Positions 3,859 through 64,000 of a DNA stretch of 64,000 nt are shown here, one piece after another. The DNA lies in assembly GCA_951406725.2 (NCBI GenBank), contig OX597816.1:106330001-106394000 (forward strand), given 5' to 3'. Numbering within the stretch: the stretch's first letter is position 1; the number at the start of each line of letters is the position of its first letter. The DNA is from Octopus vulgaris (lineage: Eukaryota). A program made the translations under genes and the position numbers. The notes under the pieces were generated by a model, which was given only the letters and a program-made list of their open reading frames with translations, did not search any database and was not told the origin of the DNA.

Positions 3859-4100
3859 ATGGTGTTCCTGTTATTGTCAGTGCAAACATTGATGGCTATA
3901 TTCCACTGAAATTCGAACCCAATTCTACACTGTTCATTAGTGGTGTCACATCTCCAGCTCAGGAGGATAGTGTATCAATATCATCATTAGCATCATCTGC
4001 TGTCTTACCTCAGAGCCCAATTAATGAAAGTAAACCTATTACAGACTTAACAGTTACTGGGGCTCTGACTTCCATCAAAGGAAAAGCCACATCATGTTAG
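3859..4100 (+). CDS. Terminal coding exon (DGVPVIVSANIDGYIPLKFEP...KGKATSC*) of an unidentified gene whose 5' part lies upstream of the window
   Basis: Long polypyrimidine tract plus cag acceptor; phase matches the previous exon; ~80 open codons to TAG; AATAAA at 4421. Confidence 0.75.
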
Positions 4101-5036
4101 CATTTCCAGTGAAAATCTCTCTCTTTTCTTGTATGTCTTCATCTTGTAATGACTTTGGGGGAGGCAGCCAGTTTGTACTATTCGGTAAAGAAGTTGCTGT
4201 GTTATTATTTGTTAGCTACAACTGCACAACCTTACAACTAACTGCACAGTTTGCTTAAAATACATTAACATCTATATAATTTCCCCTTCTCAAATACATT
4301 GCTATTATATATATATGAGAATGTATATGTGTTTGTATATTTGAACAAATTGATGTATTATGTATTGTTATGGATTTTTTTTTTTTGTTAATAATGAAAG
4401 CACAAAAAAGAAAAAGCTGTAATAAATAAATAACATAAAAACAAGCTGTTTTCTTCATTTTGACCTGTTCCTATTTAGTGCCATACCAGTGCCATGTATT
4501 ACTGCTTATACCATGAGATATGACATCATCCTCATCATTATTATCAACATTGTTTAAACATCTATTTTTCCATGTTTGCATAAATCAAATGAAACTTGTT
4601 GAAACAGATTTTCTATAGATGGATGTTCTTCTTATCACCAATCCCCACCTGTATCTGTTTCCAAGAAAAGCATTATCCCTTGTTCTTCAAACAATGAACA
4701 ACTCAATGGCTAAACATGTTTTAATAGAAGATTGCAAACAAACAATACCAATTGAGTGAATAAATGCTGAAGCAAAGGAAAGACACACACATGCATACCA
4801 TACATGCATATATATATGTATGTATGTTTACACACATGATGAAAGTAAATAGGGGTTAAATAAGCCATGGTGAATACCCCTTTAAGCAGTCTCTGGAAAT
4901 AGAACTTGTTCAGTTATAACAATCCATATATCATTATTTTTTTCTTGTGACAGGTATAATTTGTAAATCCATGGTTGAACACCAATTAAACTGGGTATAT
5001 TAATCACTGTATATTAGAAAAAAAGCAAAGGATCCA

Positions 5037-6782
5037 GATGCATTATCATCAATTTATTTAGCTTACACATGTTTCAAACAGCATGGCACAACAGAAGTTC
5101 TGCACATTGCGGTATGCACATTTAATTAATCCTTCTATTGGTTGACTGAATTGTGAGAGAAACAGAGCATGTAGCTGCCATGCCATTCTTTTCAATGCTT
5201 CTGCTAAATTTTGTATATATTGGGATAATGTAGAAAGGGCAATAAATTCCAGACTGCTGTTTCCATTTTATTGTCCAGTGTCCATATCATGGGCAAGGGG
5301 CAGTCTCTTTTTCTTCATTTAATGACAGCTACTACTTGTATGTATTTTGTTAGACTTGTAATTTAATCTGGAATGTCATTAAGTGCAACTTAATTCACAG
5401 CAGAAGACAATGAATTTAATAGAACTATAAAAGAAAATCTAATAAAAATATGCTTTTCACTGTTGAAGGAATTTATATTAGGTAAAAATTACATTTCATA
5501 AATTAATAAAAAAAGAATAAATTATACACATATACACTCACATACATATATGTACACACACATGCATACACACTCTTACTTGTCATGATACAGACTTACA
5601 TCAAATTTGTAAAATTTTTGAAGAAAAGAATATCAAAAATTTAATTAAAGTGTAAAACAATGTTGGGAAACAGGAAACATTAAAATATGATATAGTGCCT
5701 CAACTATTAATTTTAATATGTCAGTTTGTGGATGATTTAGTATATTATTATATATGTTAATCCCTATTATGAAGTATATGCTACAGGGATTAACGAGAGT
5801 TGCTGAAGCATGGAACAAACTGCTGGCATCAGTTGTTAGTTGTCTGAGCACTGCATCCTTCAAAACTTCCATGCTTTCTGAGATTCGCCAACACTACACC
5901 TGATTTTCTCCCCTCCATACACACACAGGCATGTATCTGACTCATACATTGTTCGCTTTCCAGACATTTTTACATTACTGCATGTACTTTATATGCACTT
6001 TTTGACAAGTTGTGGTGCACCTGAGCACTGTATACAATAATTTCATTATTATTTTTTATTTTATAAAATATACTAAATTATCTGCAAACTGACATATTAA
6101 AATTAATTGCTTTGTCAATATTTTAATGTTTCCTCTTCCCCACTCTGTTTTAATCTTTAATTAAGTTTTTAATATTCCTTGCTTTAAAACTTTAGAAATT
6201 CAATTGTAAGTTTTTATTATGATTAGTAAGAGTGTGTATGTATATATATATATAGAGAGAGAGAGAGAGATGCATTAGTGTGTGTATGCATTTATACAGT
6301 ACGTGTGTGTATGTATGACATTTTATTTTTATGTTATATAATTTTACTTAATATAGATTACTCCAACAACCAAATGCATATTTTTCTTAGTAGATACTGA
6401 TTTTCTTTTATAGTTCTAGCAAATTCTTTTTGTCATTAAGATGCACTTAAGAGAGACTAAATTACAATTTTTTTCTTGACAAGATACATCTATTAGCTGC
6501 CATTAAATTAAAAGAAAGATACCACCCTTTGCCTGACATGGACACTGAATAATAAAATGGAGACAGTGGTCTGGAATTTATTGTTTGTAAACTCCTTCCT
6601 CATTATTTCAATGTATACAAAATTTAGAAGAAGCATTCTTTGTAAAGAATAGCATGGCAACTTCATGCTCTGTATCTCTGGCAATTTAGTCGATCAAATG
6701 ACGGGTTGATTAAATGTGCAATGCCTGCATTGTGCCATGTTACTTGAAACGTGTAAGCTAAATAAATTGCTGATAATGCATC
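5037..6782. repeat. Large imperfect inverted repeat / foldback element (arms ~5037-5750 and ~6062-6782)
   Basis: Arms align as reverse complements at the outer ends (cattatcatcaatttatttagcttacac vs gtgtaagctaaataaattgctgataatg), in the middle (aataaattccagac vs gtctggaatttatt) and at the inner ends (ttaattttaatatgtcagtttg vs caaactgacatattaaaattaa). Confidence 0.85.
5765..6055 (+). mobile_element. CR1/L2-group LINE 3' end (second copy at ~12020-12280)
   Basis: Translates to RVAEAWNKLLASVVSCLSTASFKTSML, resembling the CR1 ORF2 C-terminus; (ATT)n tail; similar copy at 12 kb. Confidence 0.65.
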
Positions 6783-35189: not shown

Positions 35190-36462
35190 TGAGGTTATCC
35201 CATAAGTTCTATCCGAATTTTTAATATAGAAAGCAAATGATCAAATGTTATATTTAATTGAAATTTAATCATCGATGTTTTTTCCCTGATTATCTATGAC
35301 TTCCATCTATTTACAAGCTTTTTAATCCCATCAATGTAAAACTCTTTTGGTTTCAAAGCGAAGAACTCTGAAATGTCAGTTTCGACCTCCTCCTGGCTTG
35401 CGAAAGTTATGTCCTCCAAATGATTCTGTAAACTACGAAACAAATGGTAGTCCGAAGGAGCAAGGTCGGGAGAATAAAGTGGATGAGAATTTTTTTCCCA
35501 ACCAAGCTCTTCGATCTTCTGTGATGTGATCTTTGCAGTGTGGGGTCGCGCATTGTTCTGATGAAACATCACTCCTTTTCGATTCATTAAAGCGGGTCTT
35601 TTTTTTCTTCAAAGCTTGGTTCAAACGCTCAAATTGCTGACAGTAGACTTGAGCATTGATTGTTGCATTAGGTGGGAACAATTTAAAATGAATTACTCCT
35701 TTGCAATCCCACCAGATATAGAGAAGAACCTTTTTCCCATGAAGTTCCCTTCTCGGTTGTAGTTGAGCCTTTTTCCCATTTATCAAGCCTCTGTTTACGA
35801 CGTTTAACTTTTCGATAGAAGATCCATTTTTCGTCACCAGTCACAAGTCTATCCAAAAATGGTGAAATGAGTTCGCGAGAATGGAGAGAAGAGCAGATAT
35901 CAACTCGGGTTTTGCGGTTGCTTTCCGACAATTTATGAGGCACCCATTTTCCAAGTTTAGTAACCTTTCCAAGTTGTTGAAGCTGACGATGAACAGTTGT
36001 ATTGTTTGAACTAAGCTTTATTGCCAATTCTTCAACTGATAATGCAGGATTTTCTTCAAGTAATGCCTCAAGAAGCTTATCATCAAACTCAACTGGACGT
36101 CCTGTTCGATCTTCATCTTCAAGGCTGAAATCTGCACTTCTGAATTTTGCAAACCATCTTCTGCAAGTTCTTTGATTCAAGCATTCTTTCCCATAAACTG
36201 AGTGAATGTTTCGAGTCGCTTCGGTTGCAGAGTTTCCTTTTTTGTACTCAAAAAGCATTATGTGCCTCAAATGCTCTTTGGATACTTCCATGTTAGAAAG
36301 GGTTTTAACCAAAGAATTTTAATTCTAAATAATATTTAATTAGTTAAAATGTACACAAATGCATAAAAATAATTTTAATTCCATTAGACATTCTAAAATA
36401 CTATTAAATTTCATTCAATTTTAAAAAAGGTAAAATCGGACAGAACTTATTGGATGACCTGA
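35190..36462 (-). mobile_element. Full-length mariner element (1273 bp) with a frameshifted transposase pseudogene (ATG 36291 to stop ~35265)
   Basis: Imperfect TIRs (TCAGGTCATCCAATAAGTTCTGTCCG), TA flanks, and WVPHKL, TGDEKW, HQNNARPH (catalytic D to N) and YSPDLAPSDY motifs across three frames. Confidence 0.95.
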
Positions 36463-54308: not shown

Positions 54309-54681
54309 TATGTACACGCATACATGCATACATACATACATACATACATACATACATACATACATACATACATACATACATACATACATACATACATACA
54401 CACACACTTTCATAAATGCATGCCAATATACATATACAAATTTATTCATACGCACTTAAAAACATGAATGTTACATACAAGCACACGGTGATCTAATATT
54501 GCGCTCTTCGAAATGCATGCATAATAATCAAGAAGTATACTCACCTACTTGAAAACTTGAGGCTCTATAATCAAATAGCTGAACAATGTTTTCAGTCTGG
54601 CACCACCTTACTTTGGTCCGTCCCACAAAATTAAGCATTGCCCATGTAATGTCAGGGCGTGTTCACGAAGTGTTAGATATG

Positions 54682-54716
54682 TATAAAAGGAAACTGTTTG
54701 TATCAAGGATTCACAG
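54682..54716 (+). promoter_or_regulatory. TATA box and initiator of the Arg-rich secreted-protein gene
   Basis: TATAAAA at 54682-54688; Inr-like TTCACAG with its A at 54713, 31 nt after the first T of the TATA box. Confidence 0.6.
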
Positions 54717-54891
54717 GACAGCAAAGAGACTTATCAGTCAACGAAATATCAGCATAAACTGCAATTTGAAAATATTCCCATCGGTTCAAAAGAATTTAAC
54801 ACCAAACTTGGCGCACACAATTTTAAGTACGGACAAGCTGTCACCAACTGTGATAAAACAAGCATCCGCAACTCTTTGGACAGAGCTGCTA
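54713..54891 (+). other. Predicted non-coding exon 1 (5' UTR); intron 54892-58215
   Basis: No ATG in the interval; GTAAGT donor at 54892; long pyrimidine tract plus CAG acceptor at 58213-58215, 12 nt before the ATG. Confidence 0.55.
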
Positions 54892-56359
54892 GTAAGTTAT
54901 TCTTTTTCTCTACATACGTATTTTTCAAGTTCTTCCTTGTTATTTTAATCTTAAAATTGTGCCTGAAATATTTTTTATACGCGTCAGATTGAATTTCAAA
55001 TTTTGTAAGTAAATATTCGAAGTTTAATATACATTAATTAAATTTTAGAAAAATGTTGAGTTGCGCTTCCAGTTTGTTCTCTTCAGAAAGAAACTACACG
55101 AAAGATGAACAAGACGCATTCTGTATTTGCCAGTGTAAGCTAGAACACTAAATTTGGTTGATAAAGAATTTTTAATCATCAGTTACTTTGAAAGAAGTTA
55201 CGATTTTTTAATTTAAAATTTCCATTTCTTTAGGTCTGGCATAAAAACAAACTATTTAATGGGTAAAAAATGTTAAACCTGGTTGGTTTTCTTTTATTTC
55301 AACTGAATTTGTTCTTAAAGATGTTAAGGTTTTATCCTTCTTCCAATTCGGAATATCTATAATATAATAATAATAATATATATAAGTATAAGAGTATAAG
55401 GAAAATATTTCGGTTTCCCAGCTTTAAACGTATTAACGATTGAAGTATAGTTTTTATCGGTCATTCCGATTCTTGGTTGAAGTTGTTTTTACTTCATTTT
55501 TACTAATAATTATTTTTTGGAAAGATACAGCAACATTTCATTTCTTCTCTCAAATAACCGTACGCCTGGTCAAAAGTAATAGGTAGTTTGAACATATTTA
55601 TAATCTTAAATTTCCTCCTAATATTACAATCCCCTTGCAAAGTCGTTAGACAAAAGGACTATCAATATTTAGTCAGTTTTTTCTGTCCTGAATACAAATC
55701 CGGCTGTGATTAATTTTGCCTTTCATCATTCTGGTCATGACAAAACAAAGTACCATCAAGAACTGGAGCCGATCTAATCAACTATAACTTCATTAAATTA
55801 GTGGACTTGTGCCGTTGCTATATATCGGTACTATCTTTTCAAAGTTAAACATGGTCAACTGTTGTAAGTTCTCCTGCTTTGCAGTCTTAAAATAGTTGAT
55901 TCATGTTTCTATTGTGTAATAGCGGTTAATGGCAGAGGGGAAGATCAACTTTCACTTTCTTTTCCACCAATTTTTATTTCTTTTTAATCAAATACGCTAT
56001 TTTGGTTTGTTATTGTTATTATTGTTAAAGCAGGACTCGGCAGAACCTTTAGCACACCAGATAAAATGCTTAGTGGCATTTAGTCCATCTTTAACGTTCT
56101 GAGTTCAAATTCTGCCGAGGTGGACTATACCTTTCATCTTTTCAGAGTCAATAAAATAAGTACCAGTTGAGTACTGGAATCGATGTAATCGACTGCCCCT
56201 CCCCTCAAAATTGCTGGCTTTGTGCCATAATTAAAATAATTATAGTTTGATGTTGTTATTAAAAATATATTCTCACTCAAATACTGGAACGATTCAATCG
56301 ACTAACCCTCTCCTCCAAAATTTAGGTCGTTTGCCTGTGTAAGAATTTATTATTATTAT

Positions 56360-56398
<39 letters not shown>

Positions 56399-56644
56399 AA
56401 CTACTATCATTATAAGGCGACCTGGTAGAATCGTTAGCACACCGGATGAAATGATTAGCGGTATTTCGTCCGTCTTCAAGTTCTGAGTTCAAATCCCGCC
56501 AAGGTCGACTTTGCCTTTCATCCTTTCGGGGGTCGATAAATTAAGTAGCAATGAAACACTGGTGTCGATGTGATCCACTCACCCCTCCCCCAAAATGGCT
56601 GCCCTTATGGCAAATTTTGAAACCATTATTATTATTATTATTTT

Positions 56645-57030
56645 AAAATAAAATATGGTCCGTTATCTTCTGCTGAACCGGGGTCATCCCTTGACCCTAG
56701 GGTCACAGCAAGTCCTCATCTCATGGGGAGTTCACGGCGTAAAATGTGTGCGGAACCTAGCAACACTATTTTCTGAAGTTCTCCCATGTTAACACTGCAA
56801 GGGAGTTTGTTGAGCTGCTTATCAAGGCCCTTTTTAATAAGCCCTAATTCTCCAATCACCACTGGTGCTGTGCTGCTTTTCATTCCCCACATCTTGGTCA
56901 TTTCTATTTCTAGGTCTTTGTACTTAAATAACTTCTCAACTTCTTTAATAGACACATTTCTCTCTGATGGGGCTGTCACATCTGTCATTAAGCATTTCTT
57001 ATTCTTCAAATCTTTGATGTCCGGCCTGTT
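56645..57030 (-). mobile_element. R4/Dong-clade non-LTR retrotransposon 3' fragment (restriction-like endonuclease domain) in a (TAA)n tract
   Basis: PDI..KNKKCLMTDVTAPSERNVSIKEVEKLFKYKDLEIE...W...PVVIGELG...LQKIVLLGSAHILRR; (TAA/TTA)n on both sides, the known Dong target type. Confidence 0.8.
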
Positions 57031-57053
57031 TTATTATAATAATAATAATAATA

Positions 57054-57090
<37 letters not shown>

Positions 57091-58227
57091 GAGGCAACGG
57101 AGTAAAGACCACAGTGTCAGATTAATTCACTTACAAGTGTTTAGTTACGTTTCGAAAATCCTCTCTGCTACATCTACTGTTCGAAACATCGTCCCTTGTC
57201 CTTTGTTGGACGTGAGTTTTGCCCGATTGTTGTCACTTGCTCCACCTTCTTGATCAGAATTTGTCAAGATCGTCTCGGCATCGGATCCGTAGATCACCAC
57301 AGCTTCGTTTGTAGCTTCTGGAGTCCAGCTAGTTAATCTCGATGTTCACCTATTATTTGTCATTCTCGTCAAGTGACCTGCTCGGATTCATTTTAATTTA
57401 TATTTCTGAGAATGCCACGGATATCTGTCTGTATCCATTGAACTGTTCTCCTGTCTTTGTATTTGAATGACGAGCATAATTCTTTCGTAAACTCGTTGCA
57501 TTATTCCTAATTTGCGACATTTTTATTTTCTTTTATGTCTCAGAACCGTATGTCAAAGTTGGTAGTATGCATTCGTTATATATTTATCTTTTCAGAACCA
57601 TAATCATATTAGAATTGAAGATGGAACTAGCTCAATCAAAAGACTGCCATCCTCTGTATGATTCAGTGTATGATTTCCTATTTCTTGGAAAGAATTGCTG
57701 ATATATATTAACCCGAGTAGATGTAATAATCAACATGTCGGATGGTCCATTTTTCAACTTTTATATCGGATTCTTCATGTAGCTCTTTCTGTTTACCATT
57801 ACTTGGATTTTCTTCCGCTCATGTGGAGTCCCATCGATTTGCTTGAGTTCGTTGAACATTTCATGCAATTTGTCAATAGTTGTATAGAATGCTAAGGCCA
57901 GATGTCAAAAATTCGAAAAGTTCAGCTTTTTATTTTATATAAAACTTTGTTTTTGTTATTTAGATCTAGAGCAGTCCTGAAGAAGCATAAATATCAAAAG
58001 TGCTCCGATATTAATTATCTTGTCCTTTCCTTTGTTTTCTAGTGTATTAATTTTTTATAATCAGTACGGTATAATTCTAGGGACTATGCCTACTGTCTTA
58101 CAAATTTGTATTTTTGCATATGTTGAAAATATTTACTTTAATTATATGAGGACAGAGTGTATTATCATCTCCTGTGTGTCATTCTTTTTTCTTTTTGTTT
58201 TCTTTTTCACTTCAGACCTTGTAGAGG

Positions 58228-61200
58228 ATGAGGTCCTCTATACCAATATTTTCCACGATCTGCTGCTATTTCCTGTTTCTGCATGGATGCCACAGTGAAC
58301 ATGTTCTTAGTAGGAATGCACGTGAGCTACCAGGCGGAACCGAACATGATTATTCACCAGGGAAGAGAGCTGCGAAAACAGATAACATTGTCCAACCGAC
58401 TTCACCGAGTGCTATCCCGTCCAGTACAACTAAATGTCCCAATCTAGACTCGAACGATCTCGCAAACAACGGCCATAGAGTTATGAAAAGGAACAACATG
58501 CAGCGATCTAGTTTTGAGGCTGTACATGAAAAACGTAGAGTTGTCAGAAGAACTGCAAATAGCTGTGTTGTTGCCCAAAGATCGCGTCATGAGTTATCTA
58601 CCAGACGTACCGACAACAATGGGAGAAACACAATGCGCACCTCAACGTCTAGAACATTCAGCCGAGAAAATATTAGAAACAATAGAATGAGTAACCGAAG
58701 ACAAAACTCCAGGGCATCTTTAGAAACACGACGTTCCGCAGCTGAAAATGTGCAGAAACTGTCTTCAAGAAGGAGTATTGATTCTAGTAGGACATTGCAA
58801 GAGAACACAAGACAACAAACCATTAACACCCGACGAAATTCACTAACACGCGATGTTTCTAGAACAAGAAGATCAAGAGATGTTGACAGCATCAGTAGAA
58901 CTCAAGAAATCCGCAAAGAAATCTCAAATACAAGACAACAAACAGATAACATTCGCCGAAATTCACTGACACGTGACCGTTCTGTAGTTCCCAGTACACG
59001 AAGATCTAGAGATGTTGATAGCAGCCAGAAAATACGAGAAGTTCGTAATGTGGTATCAGATACGAGACGACATGCAGACGACACTCGCCGAAATTCACTG
59101 ACACGTGACCGTTCTGTAGTTCCCAGCACACGAAGATCTAGAGATGTTGATAGCAGCCAGAAAATACGAGAAGTTCGTAACGTGGTATCAGATACGAGAC
59201 GACATGCAGACGACACTCGCCGAAATTCACTGACAGTAAGTTCGAGAAGACAAAGATCCAGATCTGTAGACGCTAGAAGGAGAATACAGGATACTGGCAA
59301 AGAGAACTCAGATATAATACGAAAGCCTGATAATACGCGCAGAAATTCTCTTACACGCGAATCTTCAAGGGATTCTAGAATTCAAAGATCGAGATCTGTT
59401 GATACTACCAGAATGAGAACACAGGAAATTCGTAAAGAAGTATCGAATGCGAGACGGCAAACCGATAACACGCGTAGAAATACTCTCAGGCGTGACTCTT
59501 CGGTAGTTTCTAGAACTGAACGTTCCAGATCTGTTGACGCTACAAGAAGAATGCGCGAAGTTAAGAGAGAAGTATCAAAAACAAGACAAGAAATAGATAG
59601 CACTCGCCGAAATATTCTTACTCGTGATACTCCAGACGCTTTTAGAAATCAAAGGTCCAGATCTCTTGGTTTCAACAGGAGGACACAAGATATTCGTAAA
59701 GAGATACCAAATACCAGAAGACAAGCAAACGACGTTTACCGAGTTTCCCAGACCCGCGACACTTCAGCTGTTTCCAGAACACGAAGGTCAAGCTCGGTTG
59801 TGTCCAGTCGGAGAATTCAAGATGTTCGCAAAGACACAGACACAAAACAACAAGGAGATAATTCACGCAGAAACTCACTAGTTGATTCTAGAACTCAAAG
59901 GTCAAGGTCGGTTGATTCTGTCAGAAGAACGCGGGAATTAAGTAGAGAACTTTCGAATACAAGACGACAAACATACGACACTCGCCGAAATTCATTAACA
60001 CGTGAGTCCTTGGTAGTCTCTAGAACTCGAAGAGCTAGAAGTACTGATTCCAGTCGGACAACACAGGACATTCGCAATGAAATATCGAACACTAGACGGC
60101 AAACAGACAACAGGCGCCGAAATTCACTGATGCGTGATCCTTCGGTAGATTCCAGAAAACGAAGATCTAGGGATACTGAAGTTAGCAGAAGAAGACGAGA
60201 AATTAGTCAAGAAATATTAAATACAAGACGACAAATAGACGAAACCAGACGAAATTCACTTACTCGTGGCGCTCGATTAGTTTCTAGAACTGAAATGTCC
60301 AGATCTGTTGATTCTAGCAGAAGATCGAGGGAAATCGTTAATGAAATGTCAAGAACAAGACGACAGACAGACAACCTTCGCAGAAACACTCTTACACGTG
60401 ACAACTCAGACGTTTCTAGATCTCGAAGATCCCGATCTCTTGATTCCAGCATAGTACAAAATGTTCGCACAGGGATATCAAATACGAGACGACAAATGGA
60501 CAACAGTAGAAGACTTGCTGTAACACAAGATACTTCAGTAGCTGCTAGAGTTCAAAGGTCCAGATCTGTTGATTCCAACCGAAGAATACAGGAAACTCGC
60601 AGAGTGATGGCAAGTACAAGGCGAGATGTAGATAACACTCGTAGGGATTCTCTTTCAAGTGACTCTTCGCTCGTCCGCAGCGTTAGGAAGTTCAGATCCG
60701 CAATATCGGAAACGCGCGATGGATCTTCCAATACAAGGCGTGTAATAGATTCCAGACAACGAAACTTGGCTGTTCGTGATAAAAAAGAATATATGTTTCG
60801 TTCAAGTGATTCTGAAAGAATGAGGCACAGTAATCGCCGGAATGTGCACACTCGCGAGTCTCGAAACGATAATGAAAACTGGAGATCCACTCCAATTAAT
60901 TCCCAAAGAAGATTAAGTCAAGCAAGAGTAACTGGAAACGTTCGCGAGGAAATGAGCAATACAAGGCGACGCGTAGACAGTGGTCGTCGAAACGTCTTAC
61001 TTCAGGAATCTGGAGATGTTTCTAGAAACAAAATGTCCAGATCTGTTGATTTCAACAGAAAATCATGGCAAGAAAGGACAAAGTTTGAGGCTCGATACGT
61101 TAAATCAAATACCAGACGACAGGTAGATGATATGCATCAACCTTCCGTAGTAAGTGGGAAATCCAGGTCCATTGAATCTAACAGAAGGCAAGTTCGTACG

Positions 61201-62061
61201 GAAATATCTAATAGACGTCAAATAGACAACACTCGTCGAAACAGTGCGGTTTATGAATCTCGTGGTGTTTACAGAAGACAGACATCTAGATCCGCTGATT
61301 CTAACGTCATGTTACATCACACAAGAAGGATGCGAGATGTTCGTGAAGATACTGGCAATACCATGCGTGAGATGCGACGTACCATTCGAGAAAATTTGTC
61401 TTATGACCTCCCAAAAGCGTATAGGAACCAAAGAGCTATATACAGGACACGTCAACAAATTCGCGAGAAAATATCAGACACACGTCGTCAAATTCATAAT
61501 ATTCGTCAAAATGCTAGAAGTGCTCCTCAATTCCAGCGATCAAGATTGAGTAATTTTAACAGTTTCCGAATTGCAAGAACTGCTAATAACCGGGAAGTTA
61601 AAATATTTGGAAACTCGAAACAATTTTTAGTTTCTTCCCATCAAAACTTTCAGTTTGATATATCTTTCTTCCCGTCAAGAAACTTTGGAGCTATTGTTGT
61701 TATAAATCTAGAAAACAAACCATCATTTACAACACAAGCTTCAAACAATTCTCTATCTAACTTGTTGCCTTCATTAACACCACTGAACCAAGAGGCTGAA
61801 CGGAGCACTGCGATATCACTAGGAGTCCCGGTTGACCTGGAAATGACAGATAACGAATATTCTCGGCTGTCGTTGCCATCATCTTTCGTCCTGTCTAGTG
61901 ATAGTACAACACAGAAATATATAGGAGATAATGGCATTAATGAGGATTCAACTTTATTAATGAAAAACATTGTTGCATCACCATTAAACAATGTAAAGCA
62001 ATCTAAACTGGAAACAAGTACAAGGTTTGTAAACTTGAATCTTATTTCTCTTATTGAATAA
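58228..62061 (+). CDS. 1277-aa predicted secreted Arg/Ser/Thr-rich repeat protein, family not recognised
   Basis: 3.8-kb uninterrupted ORF in AT-rich DNA. Hydrophobic signal peptide aa 1-23 (cleavage likely after CHS). ~44-aa repeats; the youngest duplicated pair differs only by two synonymous changes. Splice acceptor upstream; AATAAA at 62057 and 62169. Confidence 0.92.
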   Translation: MRSSIPIFSTICCYFLFLHGCHSEHVLSRNARELPGGTEHDYSPGKRAAKTDNIVQPTSPSAIPSSTTKCPNLDSNDLANNGHRVMKRNNMQRSSFEAVHEKRRVVRRTANSCVVAQRSRHELSTRRTDNNGRNTMRTSTSRTFSRENIRNNRMSNRRQNSRASLETRRSAAENVQKLSSRRSIDSSRTLQENTRQQTINTRRNSLTRDVSRTRRSRDVDSISRTQEIRKEISNTRQQTDNIRRNSLTRDRSVVPSTRRSRDVDSSQKIREVRNVVSDTRRHADDTRRNSLTRDRSVVPSTRRSRDVDSSQKIREVRNVVSDTRRHADDTRRNSLTVSSRRQRSRSVDARRRIQDTGKENSDIIRKPDNTRRNSLTRESSRDSRIQRSRSVDTTRMRTQEIRKEVSNARRQTDNTRRNTLRRDSSVVSRTERSRSVDATRRMREVKREVSKTRQEIDSTRRNILTRDTPDAFRNQRSRSLGFNRRTQDIRKEIPNTRRQANDVYRVSQTRDTSAVSRTRRSSSVVSSRRIQDVRKDTDTKQQGDNSRRNSLVDSRTQRSRSVDSVRRTRELSRELSNTRRQTYDTRRNSLTRESLVVSRTRRARSTDSSRTTQDIRNEISNTRRQTDNRRRNSLMRDPSVDSRKRRSRDTEVSRRRREISQEILNTRRQIDETRRNSLTRGARLVSRTEMSRSVDSSRRSREIVNEMSRTRRQTDNLRRNTLTRDNSDVSRSRRSRSLDSSIVQNVRTGISNTRRQMDNSRRLAVTQDTSVAARVQRSRSVDSNRRIQETRRVMASTRRDVDNTRRDSLSSDSSLVRSVRKFRSAISETRDGSSNTRRVIDSRQRNLAVRDKKEYMFRSSDSERMRHSNRRNVHTRESRNDNENWRSTPINSQRRLSQARVTGNVREEMSNTRRRVDSGRRNVLLQESGDVSRNKMSRSVDFNRKSWQERTKFEARYVKSNTRRQVDDMHQPSVVSGKSRSIESNRRQVRTEISNRRQIDNTRRNSAVYESRGVYRRQTSRSADSNVMLHHTRRMRDVREDTGNTMREMRRTIRENLSYDLPKAYRNQRAIYRTRQQIREKISDTRRQIHNIRQNARSAPQFQRSRLSNFNSFRIARTANNREVKIFGNSKQFLVSSHQNFQFDISFFPSRNFGAIVVINLENKPSFTTQASNNSLSNLLPSLTPLNQEAERSTAISLGVPVDLEMTDNEYSRLSLPSSFVLSSDSTTQKYIGDNGINEDSTLLMKNIVASPLNNVKQSKLETSTRFVNLNLISLIE

Positions 62062-62168
62062 ATTATTTAAATACGCCATCTGCATGAAAAATATCAGTCG
62101 AGTTAGTTTTAATATATTTGATGCAGGGAGCATTAAAAATGCTAACAAGAAATAATAATGCGGTGAAG

Positions 62169-62174
62169 AATAAA
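62169..62174 (+). terminator. Candidate polyadenylation signal of the Arg-rich gene (another overlaps the stop at 62057-62062)
   Basis: AATAAA followed by T/GT-rich sequence at ~62195-62215. Confidence 0.5.
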
Positions 62175-64000
62175 CCATATTAGTTAGTGACTAATACTGT
62201 TTTCGTGTTTTCGGCAAATGTGTGGGACAACTCCCGTCATATTTCTATATTATTCTGATCCCATCAACGAAATATTCTTGCCAAAGTATTGGTGGAAGAA
62301 TCACTCGGTACATTTACTGACGCGTGGCTGTAAGGTAAGACGTTTACTTCTCAACCACATGGTTCTAGGTTCAGTTTTCAGTCCCACTGTGTAGCACCTT
62401 CGGCAAATGTCTTCAGCTTTAGACCTGCGTCGACCAAAACCATGAGTGGATTTGGTGGACGGAAACTAAAAGAAGTCTGTCGTGTGTGTATGTCCACCAC
62501 CTCTTGACAACAGATGTTAGTTTCTTTATGTCCCCCGTAACTTAGAGGTTCGGTAAAAACGGATCAATCGAATAAGTATAAGACTTTAAAAAAGTAATCG
62601 GTCGATTCATTCGACTAAAAAGGCAAATCTTCGAGCCGATGCCCACAGGCTGCACAGTCAAATGAATGAAACATGGAAAAGATTGGTATAAGAAAAAAGA
62701 ATTGTTTAGAGAAAAAAGAATTATTCAGAGACGCCAAAGAAATTTTCATTTTTTTCAACAGAAAGGATTACTTTCATTGTTGCAAGATGTACGGGAGACA
62801 ACTTCAAATATATTGGTTTCAAATATTGATACAAAGCCAGAAATTTCGGGGGAAGGGCCACGTCGATTAGACTCGCTGAGCGATATTGTTTTTCCCTCAG
62901 GTCATAATTATTTCTACCTAGATCCTCGCATTAAATATGTCAACTAACCTAACTCTAGTTTACTTTGTTGTTTTATATTACTTATGCTAAATATATATCT
63001 TGCCATTTCATCGCTTTTTGCTGTTAACATCATTTTTTTCGTTTCTTTCCTTTTTATACTTCCTTTAATATAAAGACATGAATTTGAGACATGCGATTTT
63101 TAAAGAACCTAGTTTATGAGTGAAATTTAGACAATCTTTTATTATAAACTCACAAGAAAATGCAAACAGGAACCAGAGTAACAGAATTTAATATAAACAG
63201 AGTATCGTTAACTTTTCTAAAGAGATAAAACAATTATGTTTTTAAATATGTATATATATATTTTTAATGGTATTTAATATGTAATTATATAAGATATATT
63301 TTAACAAGGATATGTAGCAGATCATTCTTTTGGCTGTAGTGACTACTGATGTGATACGAAGCATCGCCAGAAACTATAGCACTCCAATAAACAATCTTGT
63401 TAGTGATAGGTTTAAACGTTTTAGGTGAAGATTACCTTATGAGCCTTCATATAAAATGAAACATTCAATATAAAAAGATATTAACTGGTAATGGTTCGTG
63501 TTGGCTCCGTCGCCCTGTTTAACGCCACCACATAGCACCTTGGGCATTGTGGAGTAAGTACATTGTTCAAAACATTCGAGCCAGGTCTCCGGTCAAACCA
63601 TATTTTCATTCCGTTCTCCTTCAAGTCACTCTTGGAGGCGCTGTAAAGGATCATGAACATTCCTTTCCTCATGACTATATATATATTTTTTTAATAGTAA
63701 TACAACTAAGTTCAGATGAATGAATGTTGTGAGTGAAGATAAGTTTAATACAGAACCCTTCATCGGAGAGAGATGAAATAGCAATCTCGTTATCCTACAA
63801 TATCTATAACCACTTCACCTGTCTCAGACCAAAATTCTGCTCCAAACGTAGGGAAAAAAATCTTCCCACTATTTGAATTCCTTAAATTTATTAGAACCAC
63901 CTTAGTTATATTATTATTATTTACTATTTTATCAAGTTAACTCCACTCAGATTTAATCTCAGAAATAGCATCAAATTAATAATGTAAAGAGTTGTTTCAT

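What the first reader, a model, noticed from the sequence alone, without database searches (positions are those of the whole stretch)
54682..62200. Complete gene for an unrecognised secreted, highly cationic 44-residue-repeat protein: candidate new biomaterial or cationic polyprotein system
Seen: a TATA/Inr, an ATG-free exon 1, an intron and one 1277-codon exon with a signal peptide. From about aa 200 to 1050 there are roughly 18-20 units of consensus RRNSLTRDxSxVSRTRRSRSVDSSRRTQEIRKEISNTRRQTDNT. The array has no Cys and few aromatic, Gly or Pro residues. One counted unit has 11 Arg + 1 Lys, 7 Asp/Glu and 11 Ser/Thr, so net charge is about +5 and two or three phosphates would neutralise it. 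Established: SR-rich and protamine-like proteins are normally nuclear, not secreted. Charge-neutralisation assembly drives squid reflectins, and phosphoserine plus cationic blocks drive caddisfly silk and sandcastle-worm cement. This sequence lacks the reflectin, suckerin and histidine-rich beak protein motifs. Inference: a lineage-specific gland product (egg stalk cement, spermatophore, mucus or salivary secretion) that coacervates or binds polyanions.
Basis: partly seen in the sequence, partly recalled or inferred. Interest (0 to 1): 0.9.

Follow-up and report, generated by a model that had tools for sequence, protein, structure and literature searches.

The report
Octopod secreted arginine-rich repeat protein
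This is a real, spliced, single-copy gene, longer than first read, for a very large positively charged repeat protein whose only relative found is in the argonaut; it is likely secreted and likely works as a silk-like building block that binds acidic polymers into an extracellular material.

Summary
The gene is real, but it is not the two-exon gene described. Transcript contigs from 4 of 4 runs join 54891 to 58216 exactly, and all four leave the long exon at 62024. Three more exons lie beyond the window (one inferred), giving 1362 aa collinear to the last residue with the single relative found, an Argonauta hians protein. The 44-aa array is genuine: 14 clear units, net +5 to +7 each. The gene is under purifying selection (pN/pS 0.25). 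Secretion is supported by a conserved signal peptide and a specific lack of N-glycosylation sites (3 seen, 25 expected). The layout is fibroin-like: an invariant 23-aa N-terminal segment, a repeat core whose units pair an Arg/Ser half with an Ile/Val/Thr heptad half, and conserved C-terminal modules. Best reading: a secreted polycationic structural protein that condenses with polyanions (0.5). Main rival: a precursor releasing an amidated N-terminal peptide (0.2). No family, fold or paper match was found. Tissue and function are unknown.

The parts
54682..54689 (+). TATA-like box (candidate core promoter)
   Evidence: Sequence. 3 of 4 contigs begin 40-66 nt downstream; one begins upstream. Start site not shown.
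54722..54891 (+). Exon 1, non-coding (5' end approximate)
   Evidence: Contigs of 4 of 4 runs cover it and join 54891 to 58216.
54892..58215 (+). Intron 1, 3324 nt, GT..AG; holds high-copy repeats (about 56090-56550)
   Evidence: depth inside the intron is confined almost wholly to the repeats.
58216..62024 (+). Exon 2: 12-nt leader, ATG at 58228, 1265 codons plus 2 nt
58228..58296 (+). Predicted signal peptide, aa 1-23
   Evidence: Hydropathy; 18 of 23 identical in Argonauta; cleavage site judged by the recalled -3/-1 rule; SignalP not available.
58297..58365 (+). Invariant N-terminal segment, aa 24-46, with an R-x-x-R site and ending in S-P-G-K (then R here, M in Argonauta)
   Evidence: 23 of 23 identical in Argonauta.
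58831..60639 (+). Core array: 14 units of 39-45 aa (aa 202-804), each an Arg/Ser-rich half plus a heptad half; net +86
58953..59235 (+). Most recent duplication (units 2 and 3): 132-nt copies differing at 2 places; one run's contig has one unit fewer
   Evidence: X5 contig joins 59049 to 59182.
60640..61500 (+). Degenerate continuation of the array (aa 805-1091)
   Evidence: 5 weak profile matches.
61615..61758 (+). Conserved hydrophobic/aromatic module after the array (aa 1130-1177)
   Evidence: 30 of 48 identical in Argonauta; single copy in G000; fold not predicted.
62025..64000 (+). The gene continues outside the window: exon 3 at L009:956-1022 (67 nt, inferred), exon 4 at L009:2225-2316 (92 nt), exon 5 at L009:4227-4359 (coding part and stop). 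Exons 4-5 encode the conserved C-terminal module (aa 1291-1362), predicted as three helices around a 12-residue hydrophobic core
   Evidence: Donor at 62025 used in 4 of 4 runs. Exons 4 and 5: tblastn with the Argonauta C-terminus, E 0.005 and 4e-14, splice signals, 39 of 72 identical, single copy, low-confidence helices. Exon 3: the only one of 7 in-phase candidates with a 9/9 donor; it aligns to Argonauta and fits two contig lengths.

Best explanation
The gene is spliced and conserved and encodes a predicted 1362-residue arginine/serine-rich repeat protein that is likely secreted and likely works as a fibroin-like structural polycation, condensing with acidic polymers into an extracellular gel, coat or fibre. 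Steps: (1) shown: spliced transcript, purifying selection, ortholog collinear end to end; (2) inferred, well supported: the signal peptide takes it into the ER, where it avoids N-glycans; (3) inferred, moderate: in each 44-aa unit the Ile/Val/Thr heptad half forms a short helix that pairs with other chains, while the Arg/Ser half stays flexible; (4) inferred, weak: the conserved end modules set register or end-to-end assembly, as fibroin termini do; (5) inferred, untested: the roughly +6 per unit, almost all arginine, is neutralised by sulfated polysaccharide, acidic or phosphorylated proteins or phosphate, possibly aided by partial phosphorylation of the S-R-S-V-D motif, and this triggers condensation on release.
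For: Splicing in 4 of 4 runs. Against the contigs of run X17 (organism C), exon 2 shows 12 replacement and 15 silent differences over 2734 and 839 sites: ratio 0.25, P 3e-4, no stops. N-x-S/T sites: 3 against 25.0 expected in the mature chain, 3 against 14.6 outside the array, and 4 against 15.6 in Argonauta (0 of 3000 shuffles as low in each); 0 against 9.9 under a repeat-aware null (P 0.007); five control patterns were not depleted. Secretory proteins lose such sites at buried and interface positions (PMC5562741, abstract and section 8), and site-poor secreted human proteins are rich in matrix proteins (PMC10987669, section 13). Conserved ends with a variable core: 23/23, 30/48 and 39/72 identical against 378/851, and one contig has one whole unit fewer; caddisfly H-fibroin has this layout and allelic unit variation (PMC13267644, passages). 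Arg is the best-kept residue (133 of 190), and R:K is 260:42. Heptad contrast: 0 of 3000 column permutations as strong with core set ILVMFTA. AlphaFold confidence peaks (88-90 and 68-78) on the heptad half in 2 of 3 units.
Against: No tissue, protein-level or biochemical data. The heptad core set was chosen after seeing the alignment; with ILVMF alone P is 0.063. AlphaFold draws almost the whole fragment as helix with pTM 0.27, and the full-length Argonauta model is unreliable (pLDDT 38). The two species share ancestry, so their lack of glycosylation sites is not independent evidence. Site-poor cytosolic proteins are also enriched in basic, disordered regions (PMC10987669, passage). High Arg identity is partly due to composition. 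A structural role does not by itself explain 23 of 23 identity in the N-terminal segment. The 44-aa period has decayed in Argonauta (no lag above shuffles), so exact spacing is not essential. There are no Cys, Gly/Pro, Tyr or His blocks for known cross-linking chemistry.
Confidence: 0.5

Rival explanations
1. A peptide precursor: convertases would release the invariant N-terminal segment as a C-terminally amidated (possibly Tyr-sulfated) signalling peptide, with the array acting as a carrier or being cut at RR into cationic peptides.
For: aa 24-46 are 23 of 23 identical in Argonauta, lie directly behind the signal peptide, contain R-x-x-R and end in S-P-G-K-R. A snail SPamide (calcitonin-like) peptide also ends in S-P-G-K-R in its precursor (PMC10036341 supplement), and scallop calcitonin-like peptides end in SP-amide (PMC5996578 passage). 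There are 58 RR pairs in aa 200-1050.
Against: Argonauta has G-K-M, with no dibasic site after the Gly. RR (58 against 50.3) and furin-type sites (7 against 13.2) are not enriched, and in Argonauta they are 37 against 38.0 and 3 against 9.4. There is no Cys ring as in SPamide. Units are not on a fixed grid in Argonauta.
Confidence: 0.2
2. A secretory-granule packing scaffold: a lumenal polycation that would condense acidic cargo (mucus polysaccharide, acidic proteins) inside granules, held at the membrane by the C-terminal amphipathic/hydrophobic helices, and dispersed or degraded on release; the charge mirror of granins (granin comparison recalled).
For: The same ER-passage evidence. The conserved C-terminal module has a 12-residue hydrophobic core flanked by amphipathic stretches.
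Against: It does not need the heptad pattern or the fibroin-like layout; there are no localisation data.
Confidence: 0.15
3. A membrane-anchored surface protein: the C-terminal hydrophobic segment would be a transmembrane or lipid-anchor signal that displays a long cationic brush.
For: A conserved hydrophobic core (11-residue hydropathy 2.66 and 2.65) followed by basic residues and a conserved S-I-F end.
Against: The core is only 12 residues; 17- and 19-residue windows score strongly unfavourable on a recalled insertion scale in both species. A polar tail of about 20 residues follows, unlike a GPI signal (recalled).
Confidence: 0.08
4. A nuclear SR-type or protamine-like protein, as the automatic name 'serine/arginine repetitive matrix protein 2-like' of the Argonauta relative suggests.
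For: 19% Arg and 15% Ser; R-S-R-S is enriched (7 against 0.9, P 0.018); 21 R-R-x-S/T sites in aa 200-1050; the source's name.
Against: Conserved signal peptide; specific loss of N-glycosylation sites; the longest RS run is 2 dipeptides; no Pfam domain; phmmer over 1.84 billion proteins returns only the query itself, no SRRM2.
Confidence: 0.05

Closest known systems
Argonauta hians 'serine/arginine repetitive matrix protein 2-like' (P0002, NCBI, 1129 aa; uncharacterised)
   Same: The likely ortholog: 42% identity over 77% of the query, E 7e-156; the same signal peptide, invariant N-terminal segment, unit profile (13 of 20 stretches at E < 0.01), post-array module and last residues.
   Different: Shorter, with a decayed repeat period and G-K-M instead of G-K-R. 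Its name appears to reflect composition only.
Caddisfly H-fibroin (PMC13267644, passages read)
   Same: Aquatic silk block-repeat protein with conserved non-repetitive termini, Ser-x motifs, Arg clusters and allelic variation in unit number.
   Different: No (SX)nE blocks (1 weak match), no Gly/Pro spacers (Gly 1.8%, Pro 2.1%), no C-terminal Cys, about a fifth of the length; no homology detected.
Octovafibrin, Octopus bimaculoides egg-tether protein (PMC10336842, abstract and passages)
   Same: Octopus extracellular repeat protein of similar size (135 kDa) with terminal modules that drive assembly.
   Different: 29 disulfide-bonded EGF domains and C-type lectin ends; here there are no Cys in the array and no Pfam domain.
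Molluscan SPamide / calcitonin-like precursors (PMC10036341 supplement; PMC5996578 passage)
   Same: A peptide ending in S-P-G-K-R within a secreted precursor.
   Different: SPamides have a Cys ring in a precursor of about 200 aa; here there is no ring, the precursor is 1362 aa and the dibasic site is not conserved.
Squid reflectins; sandcastle-worm cement proteins (recalled, not looked up)
   Same: Cationic, largely unstructured block proteins that assemble on charge neutralisation.
   Different: No reflectin motif; Met 2%, Tyr 1%, His 1%; no DOPA/Gly/Lys blocks or poly-Ser partner seen.

Membership tests
SRRM2 / SR proteins | Long RS dipeptide runs | tested here: not met
   Longest run is 2 dipeptides in both species.
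SRRM2 / SR proteins | cwf21 or RRM domain and no signal peptide (features recalled) | tested here: not met
   No Pfam hit at a useful E-value; conserved signal peptide.
Caddisfly H-fibroin | Conserved termini flanking a repetitive core | tested here: met
   Layout only; no sequence homology found.
Caddisfly H-fibroin | (SX)nE blocks and Gly/Pro-rich spacers | tested here: not met
   One (SX)2E and ten (SX)2D; Gly 1.8%, Pro 2.1%.
Caddisfly H-fibroin | Phosphoserine complexed with metal ions | not testable with these tools
   Needs phosphoproteomics.
SPamide / calcitonin-like precursors | Peptide ending in Pro-Gly plus a dibasic site | tested here: inconclusive
   G-K-R here, G-K-M in Argonauta.
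SPamide / calcitonin-like precursors | N-terminal Cys ring in the mature peptide | tested here: not met
   No Cys in aa 24-69; compare.
Neuropeptide-type polyprotein | Conserved copies bounded by enriched dibasic or furin sites | tested here: not met
   RR and R-x-K/R-R not above shuffles in either species.
Reflectins | M/F-D-X5-M-D-X5-M-D motif, Met/Tyr richness (recalled) | tested here: not met
   0 matches; Met 2.0%, Tyr 1.0%.
Octovafibrin | Tandem EGF domains with C-type lectin ends | tested here: not met
   5 Cys in all; no Pfam domain.
Secretory-pathway proteins (general class) | Cleavable N-terminal signal peptide | tested here: inconclusive
   Hydropathy, conservation and loss of glycosylation sites all fit; no dedicated predictor or experiment was available.
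Coiled-coil fibrous proteins | Heptad core | tested here: inconclusive
   0 of 3000 permutations with a post-hoc core set, P 0.063 with the strict set; helix predicted.

The most novel reading that the evidence does not exclude
An octopod invention: a 160-kDa, glycan-avoiding, arginine polycation that builds segmented coiled-coil filaments cross-linked only by polyanions (no disulfide, DOPA, His-metal or Gly/Pro chemistry), a new kind of underwater protein material. The same chain may also release an invariant amidated peptide from its N-terminus.
Probability: 0.2. Interest if true: 0.85.

Novelty: new variant of a known kind. Interest (0 to 1): 0.55.

Why it matters
If the best reading holds, this is an undescribed, octopod-restricted family of secreted block-repeat proteins that sets a material in seawater through arginine-polyanion pairing and short threonine/isoleucine heptads, a chemistry unlike silks, cements, suckerins or octovafibrin. 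It is single-copy, has a simple 44-residue unit that is easy to make recombinantly, and is misnamed as a nuclear splicing protein in the one public record found, so it is a tractable lead for cephalopod biology and wet-adhesive design. The invariant N-terminal segment is a second, independently testable lead. For now tissue and function are unknown, and lineage-specific repetitive secreted proteins are common in animals, which caps the score.

Tried and rejected
Homology: whole-protein search, 1 hit among 8000 candidates scored; Argonauta C-terminus against shorter proteins, 0 of 78; N-terminal 50 aa against longer proteins, 1 of 4; phmmer over 1.84 billion representatives, the query only. No Octopus record was returned, which I cannot explain; absence from squid or cuttlefish is therefore not shown. 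Pfam: nothing significant. ESM Atlas: no usable hit for the C-terminus or the array. PDB by sequence: one E 0.5 hit, and none for the repeat profile. Foldseek on the low-confidence model: nothing. Three-copy complex prediction of a 3-unit fragment: no answer, not used as evidence. Paralogs: none in G000 with five queries (lower bounds), and none with the unit profile in 464 kb around the gene. Runs: no holder is on record as RNA; 20 of 24 listed runs, from 8 studies, hold over half the words and 4 hold next to none, which is no evidence on tissue. A short isoform ending at 62061 is not excluded (AATAAA at 62057), but no long contig follows it. Skipping exon 3 was rejected because it shifts the frame and stops after aa 1287, losing the conserved end. 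Literature: ten searches found no description of this protein, 20 of 25 matches were listed, all unrelated by title, and, 25 of 28. Passages of two octopus single-cell papers (PMC9815951, PMC9712504) and of an oviducal-gland paper (PMC8976471) named nothing like it; 3 supplement files of PMC9712504 were searched and one could not be read. Gene tables in supplements I did not see, and subscription papers, may list it under a locus number. PMC6425005, PMC9410093 and PMC13609028 (passages) gave no cephalopod SPamide sequence. Earlier scan notes by place, sequence and words showed nothing on this gene.


Full report
1. The observation. The window lies at G000:C3:106330001-106394000 of a 2.8-Gb genome. 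The frame from ATG 58228 is open for 1277 codons, 20% Arg and 15% Ser, with Cys only at aa 12, 13, 21, 70 and 113. Identity at lag 44 is 0.377, against at most 0.182 in 200 shuffles. Fourteen units of 39-45 aa fill aa 202-804, and five weaker profile matches reach aa 1091. Units carry +5 to +7; the array is net +86 with 4 aromatic residues. The repeat is real.

2. The gene model needs correcting. I laid 4 of the 24 listed runs (4 studies; RNA status is the tool's guess) on 54450-63200. In 4 of 4, one contig joins 54891 to 58216 exactly, removing a GT..AG intron, which shows spliced transcripts. In 4 of 4, the long contig stops matching at 62024, at a GT donor, and carries 646-863 letters that do not lie in the stretch laid. 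The Argonauta C-terminus located two exons downstream of the window (E 0.005 and 4e-14), at L009:2225-2316 and 4227-4359. Phase requires a further exon of 3n+1 nt. Of 13 candidate exons between 62025 and the first of these, 7 have that phase, and one of the 7 (L009:956-1022, 67 nt) has a perfect donor. With it the model has 1362 aa, no internal stop, aligns to Argonauta to the last residue, and puts two of the four contig ends inside an (AT)n repeat; without it the frame stops after aa 1287. Exon 3 is inferred; these downstream junctions were not seen directly.

3. Conservation. The gene is single-copy in G000 by five queries, with no tandem paralog in 464 kb; the nearest recognisable neighbours are housekeeping genes. 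The only relative is Argonauta hians P0002 (42% identity, E 7e-156); searches added none. Identity by segment: signal peptide 18/23, aa 24-46 23/23, aa 47-249 17/203, aa 250-1100 378/851, aa 1130-1177 30/48, aa 1178-1290 23/113, aa 1291-1362 39/72. The 27 differences in the exon 2 contigs of run X17 (organism C) are 12 replacement and 15 silent: pN/pS 0.25, P 3e-4. One contig (X5) has exactly 132 nt fewer at the near-identical units 2 and 3: either an in-frame copy-number allele or an assembly collapse.

4. Is it secreted? No signal-peptide predictor was available. The N-terminus has a basic residue, a hydrophobic core (aa 7-17) and small residues at -3/-1 for cleavage after Ser23 (rule recalled). 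An independent sign comes from N-glycosylation sites. The mature chain has 3 against 25.0 expected from composition; outside the array 3 against 14.6; Argonauta 4 against 15.6 (0 of 3000 shuffles as low in each); the array 0 against 9.9 when alignment columns are permuted (P 0.007); the Argonauta C-terminal half 3 against 7.9 (P 0.029). Five control patterns were not depleted (lowest P 0.09). Secretory proteins lose such sites at buried and interface positions (PMC5562741, abstract and section 8), and site-poor secreted human proteins are often matrix proteins (PMC10987669, section 13). The same paper notes that site-poor cytosolic proteins tend to be basic and disordered, and the two species are not independent, so this is support, not proof.

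5. Anatomy of the unit. The first half is Arg/Ser-rich, with R-S-R-S enriched (7 against 0.9, P 0.018) and an S-x-S-x-D/E motif borderline (7 against 1.9, P 0.068). The second half places Ile/Val/Met/Thr at columns spaced 3-4-3-4-3. The contrast exceeds all 3000 column permutations with the core set ILVMFTA, chosen after seeing the alignment, and gives P 0.063 with ILVMF alone. AlphaFold on a 3-unit fragment draws helix nearly throughout (pTM 0.27), with confidence highest (88-90 and 68-78) on the heptad half of 2 of 3 units. The full-length Argonauta model is unreliable (pLDDT 38) but gives three C-terminal helices at about 54. The C-terminal hydrophobic core is 12 residues, too short for an ordinary membrane span on a recalled scale. 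RR pairs, furin-type sites and S-x-E sites are not enriched.

6. Mechanism. I favour a secreted, fibroin-like structural polycation (0.5): short heptad helices associate between chains, the conserved ends set assembly, and about +6 per unit, nearly all arginine (R:K 260:42), is neutralised by polyanions so that the protein condenses into a gel, coat or fibre. Shown: transcript, first splice junction, selection, ortholog, composition. Inferred: secretion (good support), helical self-association (moderate), role of the ends and polyanion-triggered condensation (untested). Rivals: a precursor that releases an amidated N-terminal peptide (0.2; invariant segment ending S-P-G-K-R, but G-K-M in Argonauta), a granule-packing scaffold (0.15), a membrane-anchored brush (0.08) and a nuclear SR protein (0.05).

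7. Comparison with known systems. It is laid out like caddisfly H-fibroin (conserved termini, repetitive core, unit-number alleles, Arg clusters; PMC13267644 passages) but lacks (SX)nE blocks and Gly/Pro spacers, so it is not a member. [quoted passage not shown] It is not an SPamide precursor (no Cys ring), not a reflectin (recalled motif absent) and not SRRM2 (RS runs of at most 2, no Pfam domain). Ten literature searches found no description; subscription papers and unseen supplements were not covered.

8. Verdict. A real, conserved, apparently undescribed octopod gene family: a new variant of the known kind 'secreted block-repeat structural protein'. Observation partly confirmed (array and first junction right, gene incomplete); interpretation partly supported. 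Interest 0.55. The boldest reading not excluded, a new polyanion-set coiled-coil material that also releases a conserved peptide, has probability 0.2 and would deserve 0.85.

Noticed in passing
window 59049-59182: Run X5's contig lacks exactly one 132-nt unit, while X1, X2 and X17 contigs break here, two of them with raised depth; unit number may vary between individuals or species.
   Followed up: partly
window 54826: Run X17 (organism C) has a 12-nt insertion in exon 1, and its contig starts at 54606, upstream of the TATA-like box.
   Followed up: no
window 60279, 61326, 61821: Single A>G differences in contigs of X2 and X5, all silent; alleles or RNA editing cannot be told apart.
   Followed up: partly
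window 35436-36318 (-): Mariner-type transposase in two frames (HTH_48, Transposase_1).
   Followed up: partly
window 56090-56550 and 62334-62625: Very high-copy interspersed repeats in introns 1 and 2, at great depth in all four runs; they look like octopus SINEs (recalled).
   Followed up: no
L011:545-1480 (-): Mitochondrial ribosomal protein S30 (PDCD9) exon about 16 kb downstream of the last exon, on the opposite strand.
   Followed up: partly
L029:4581-4991 (+); L026:35-427 and 4075-5058 (+): A NopRA1 (URB1-like) exon upstream; two frames 4 kb apart in L026 begin with the same 70 residues, a local duplication or assembly artefact.
   Followed up: no
L027:6370-9567 (-): A 1066-codon open frame with endonuclease and reverse-transcriptase domains, a LINE-type element.
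   Followed up: no
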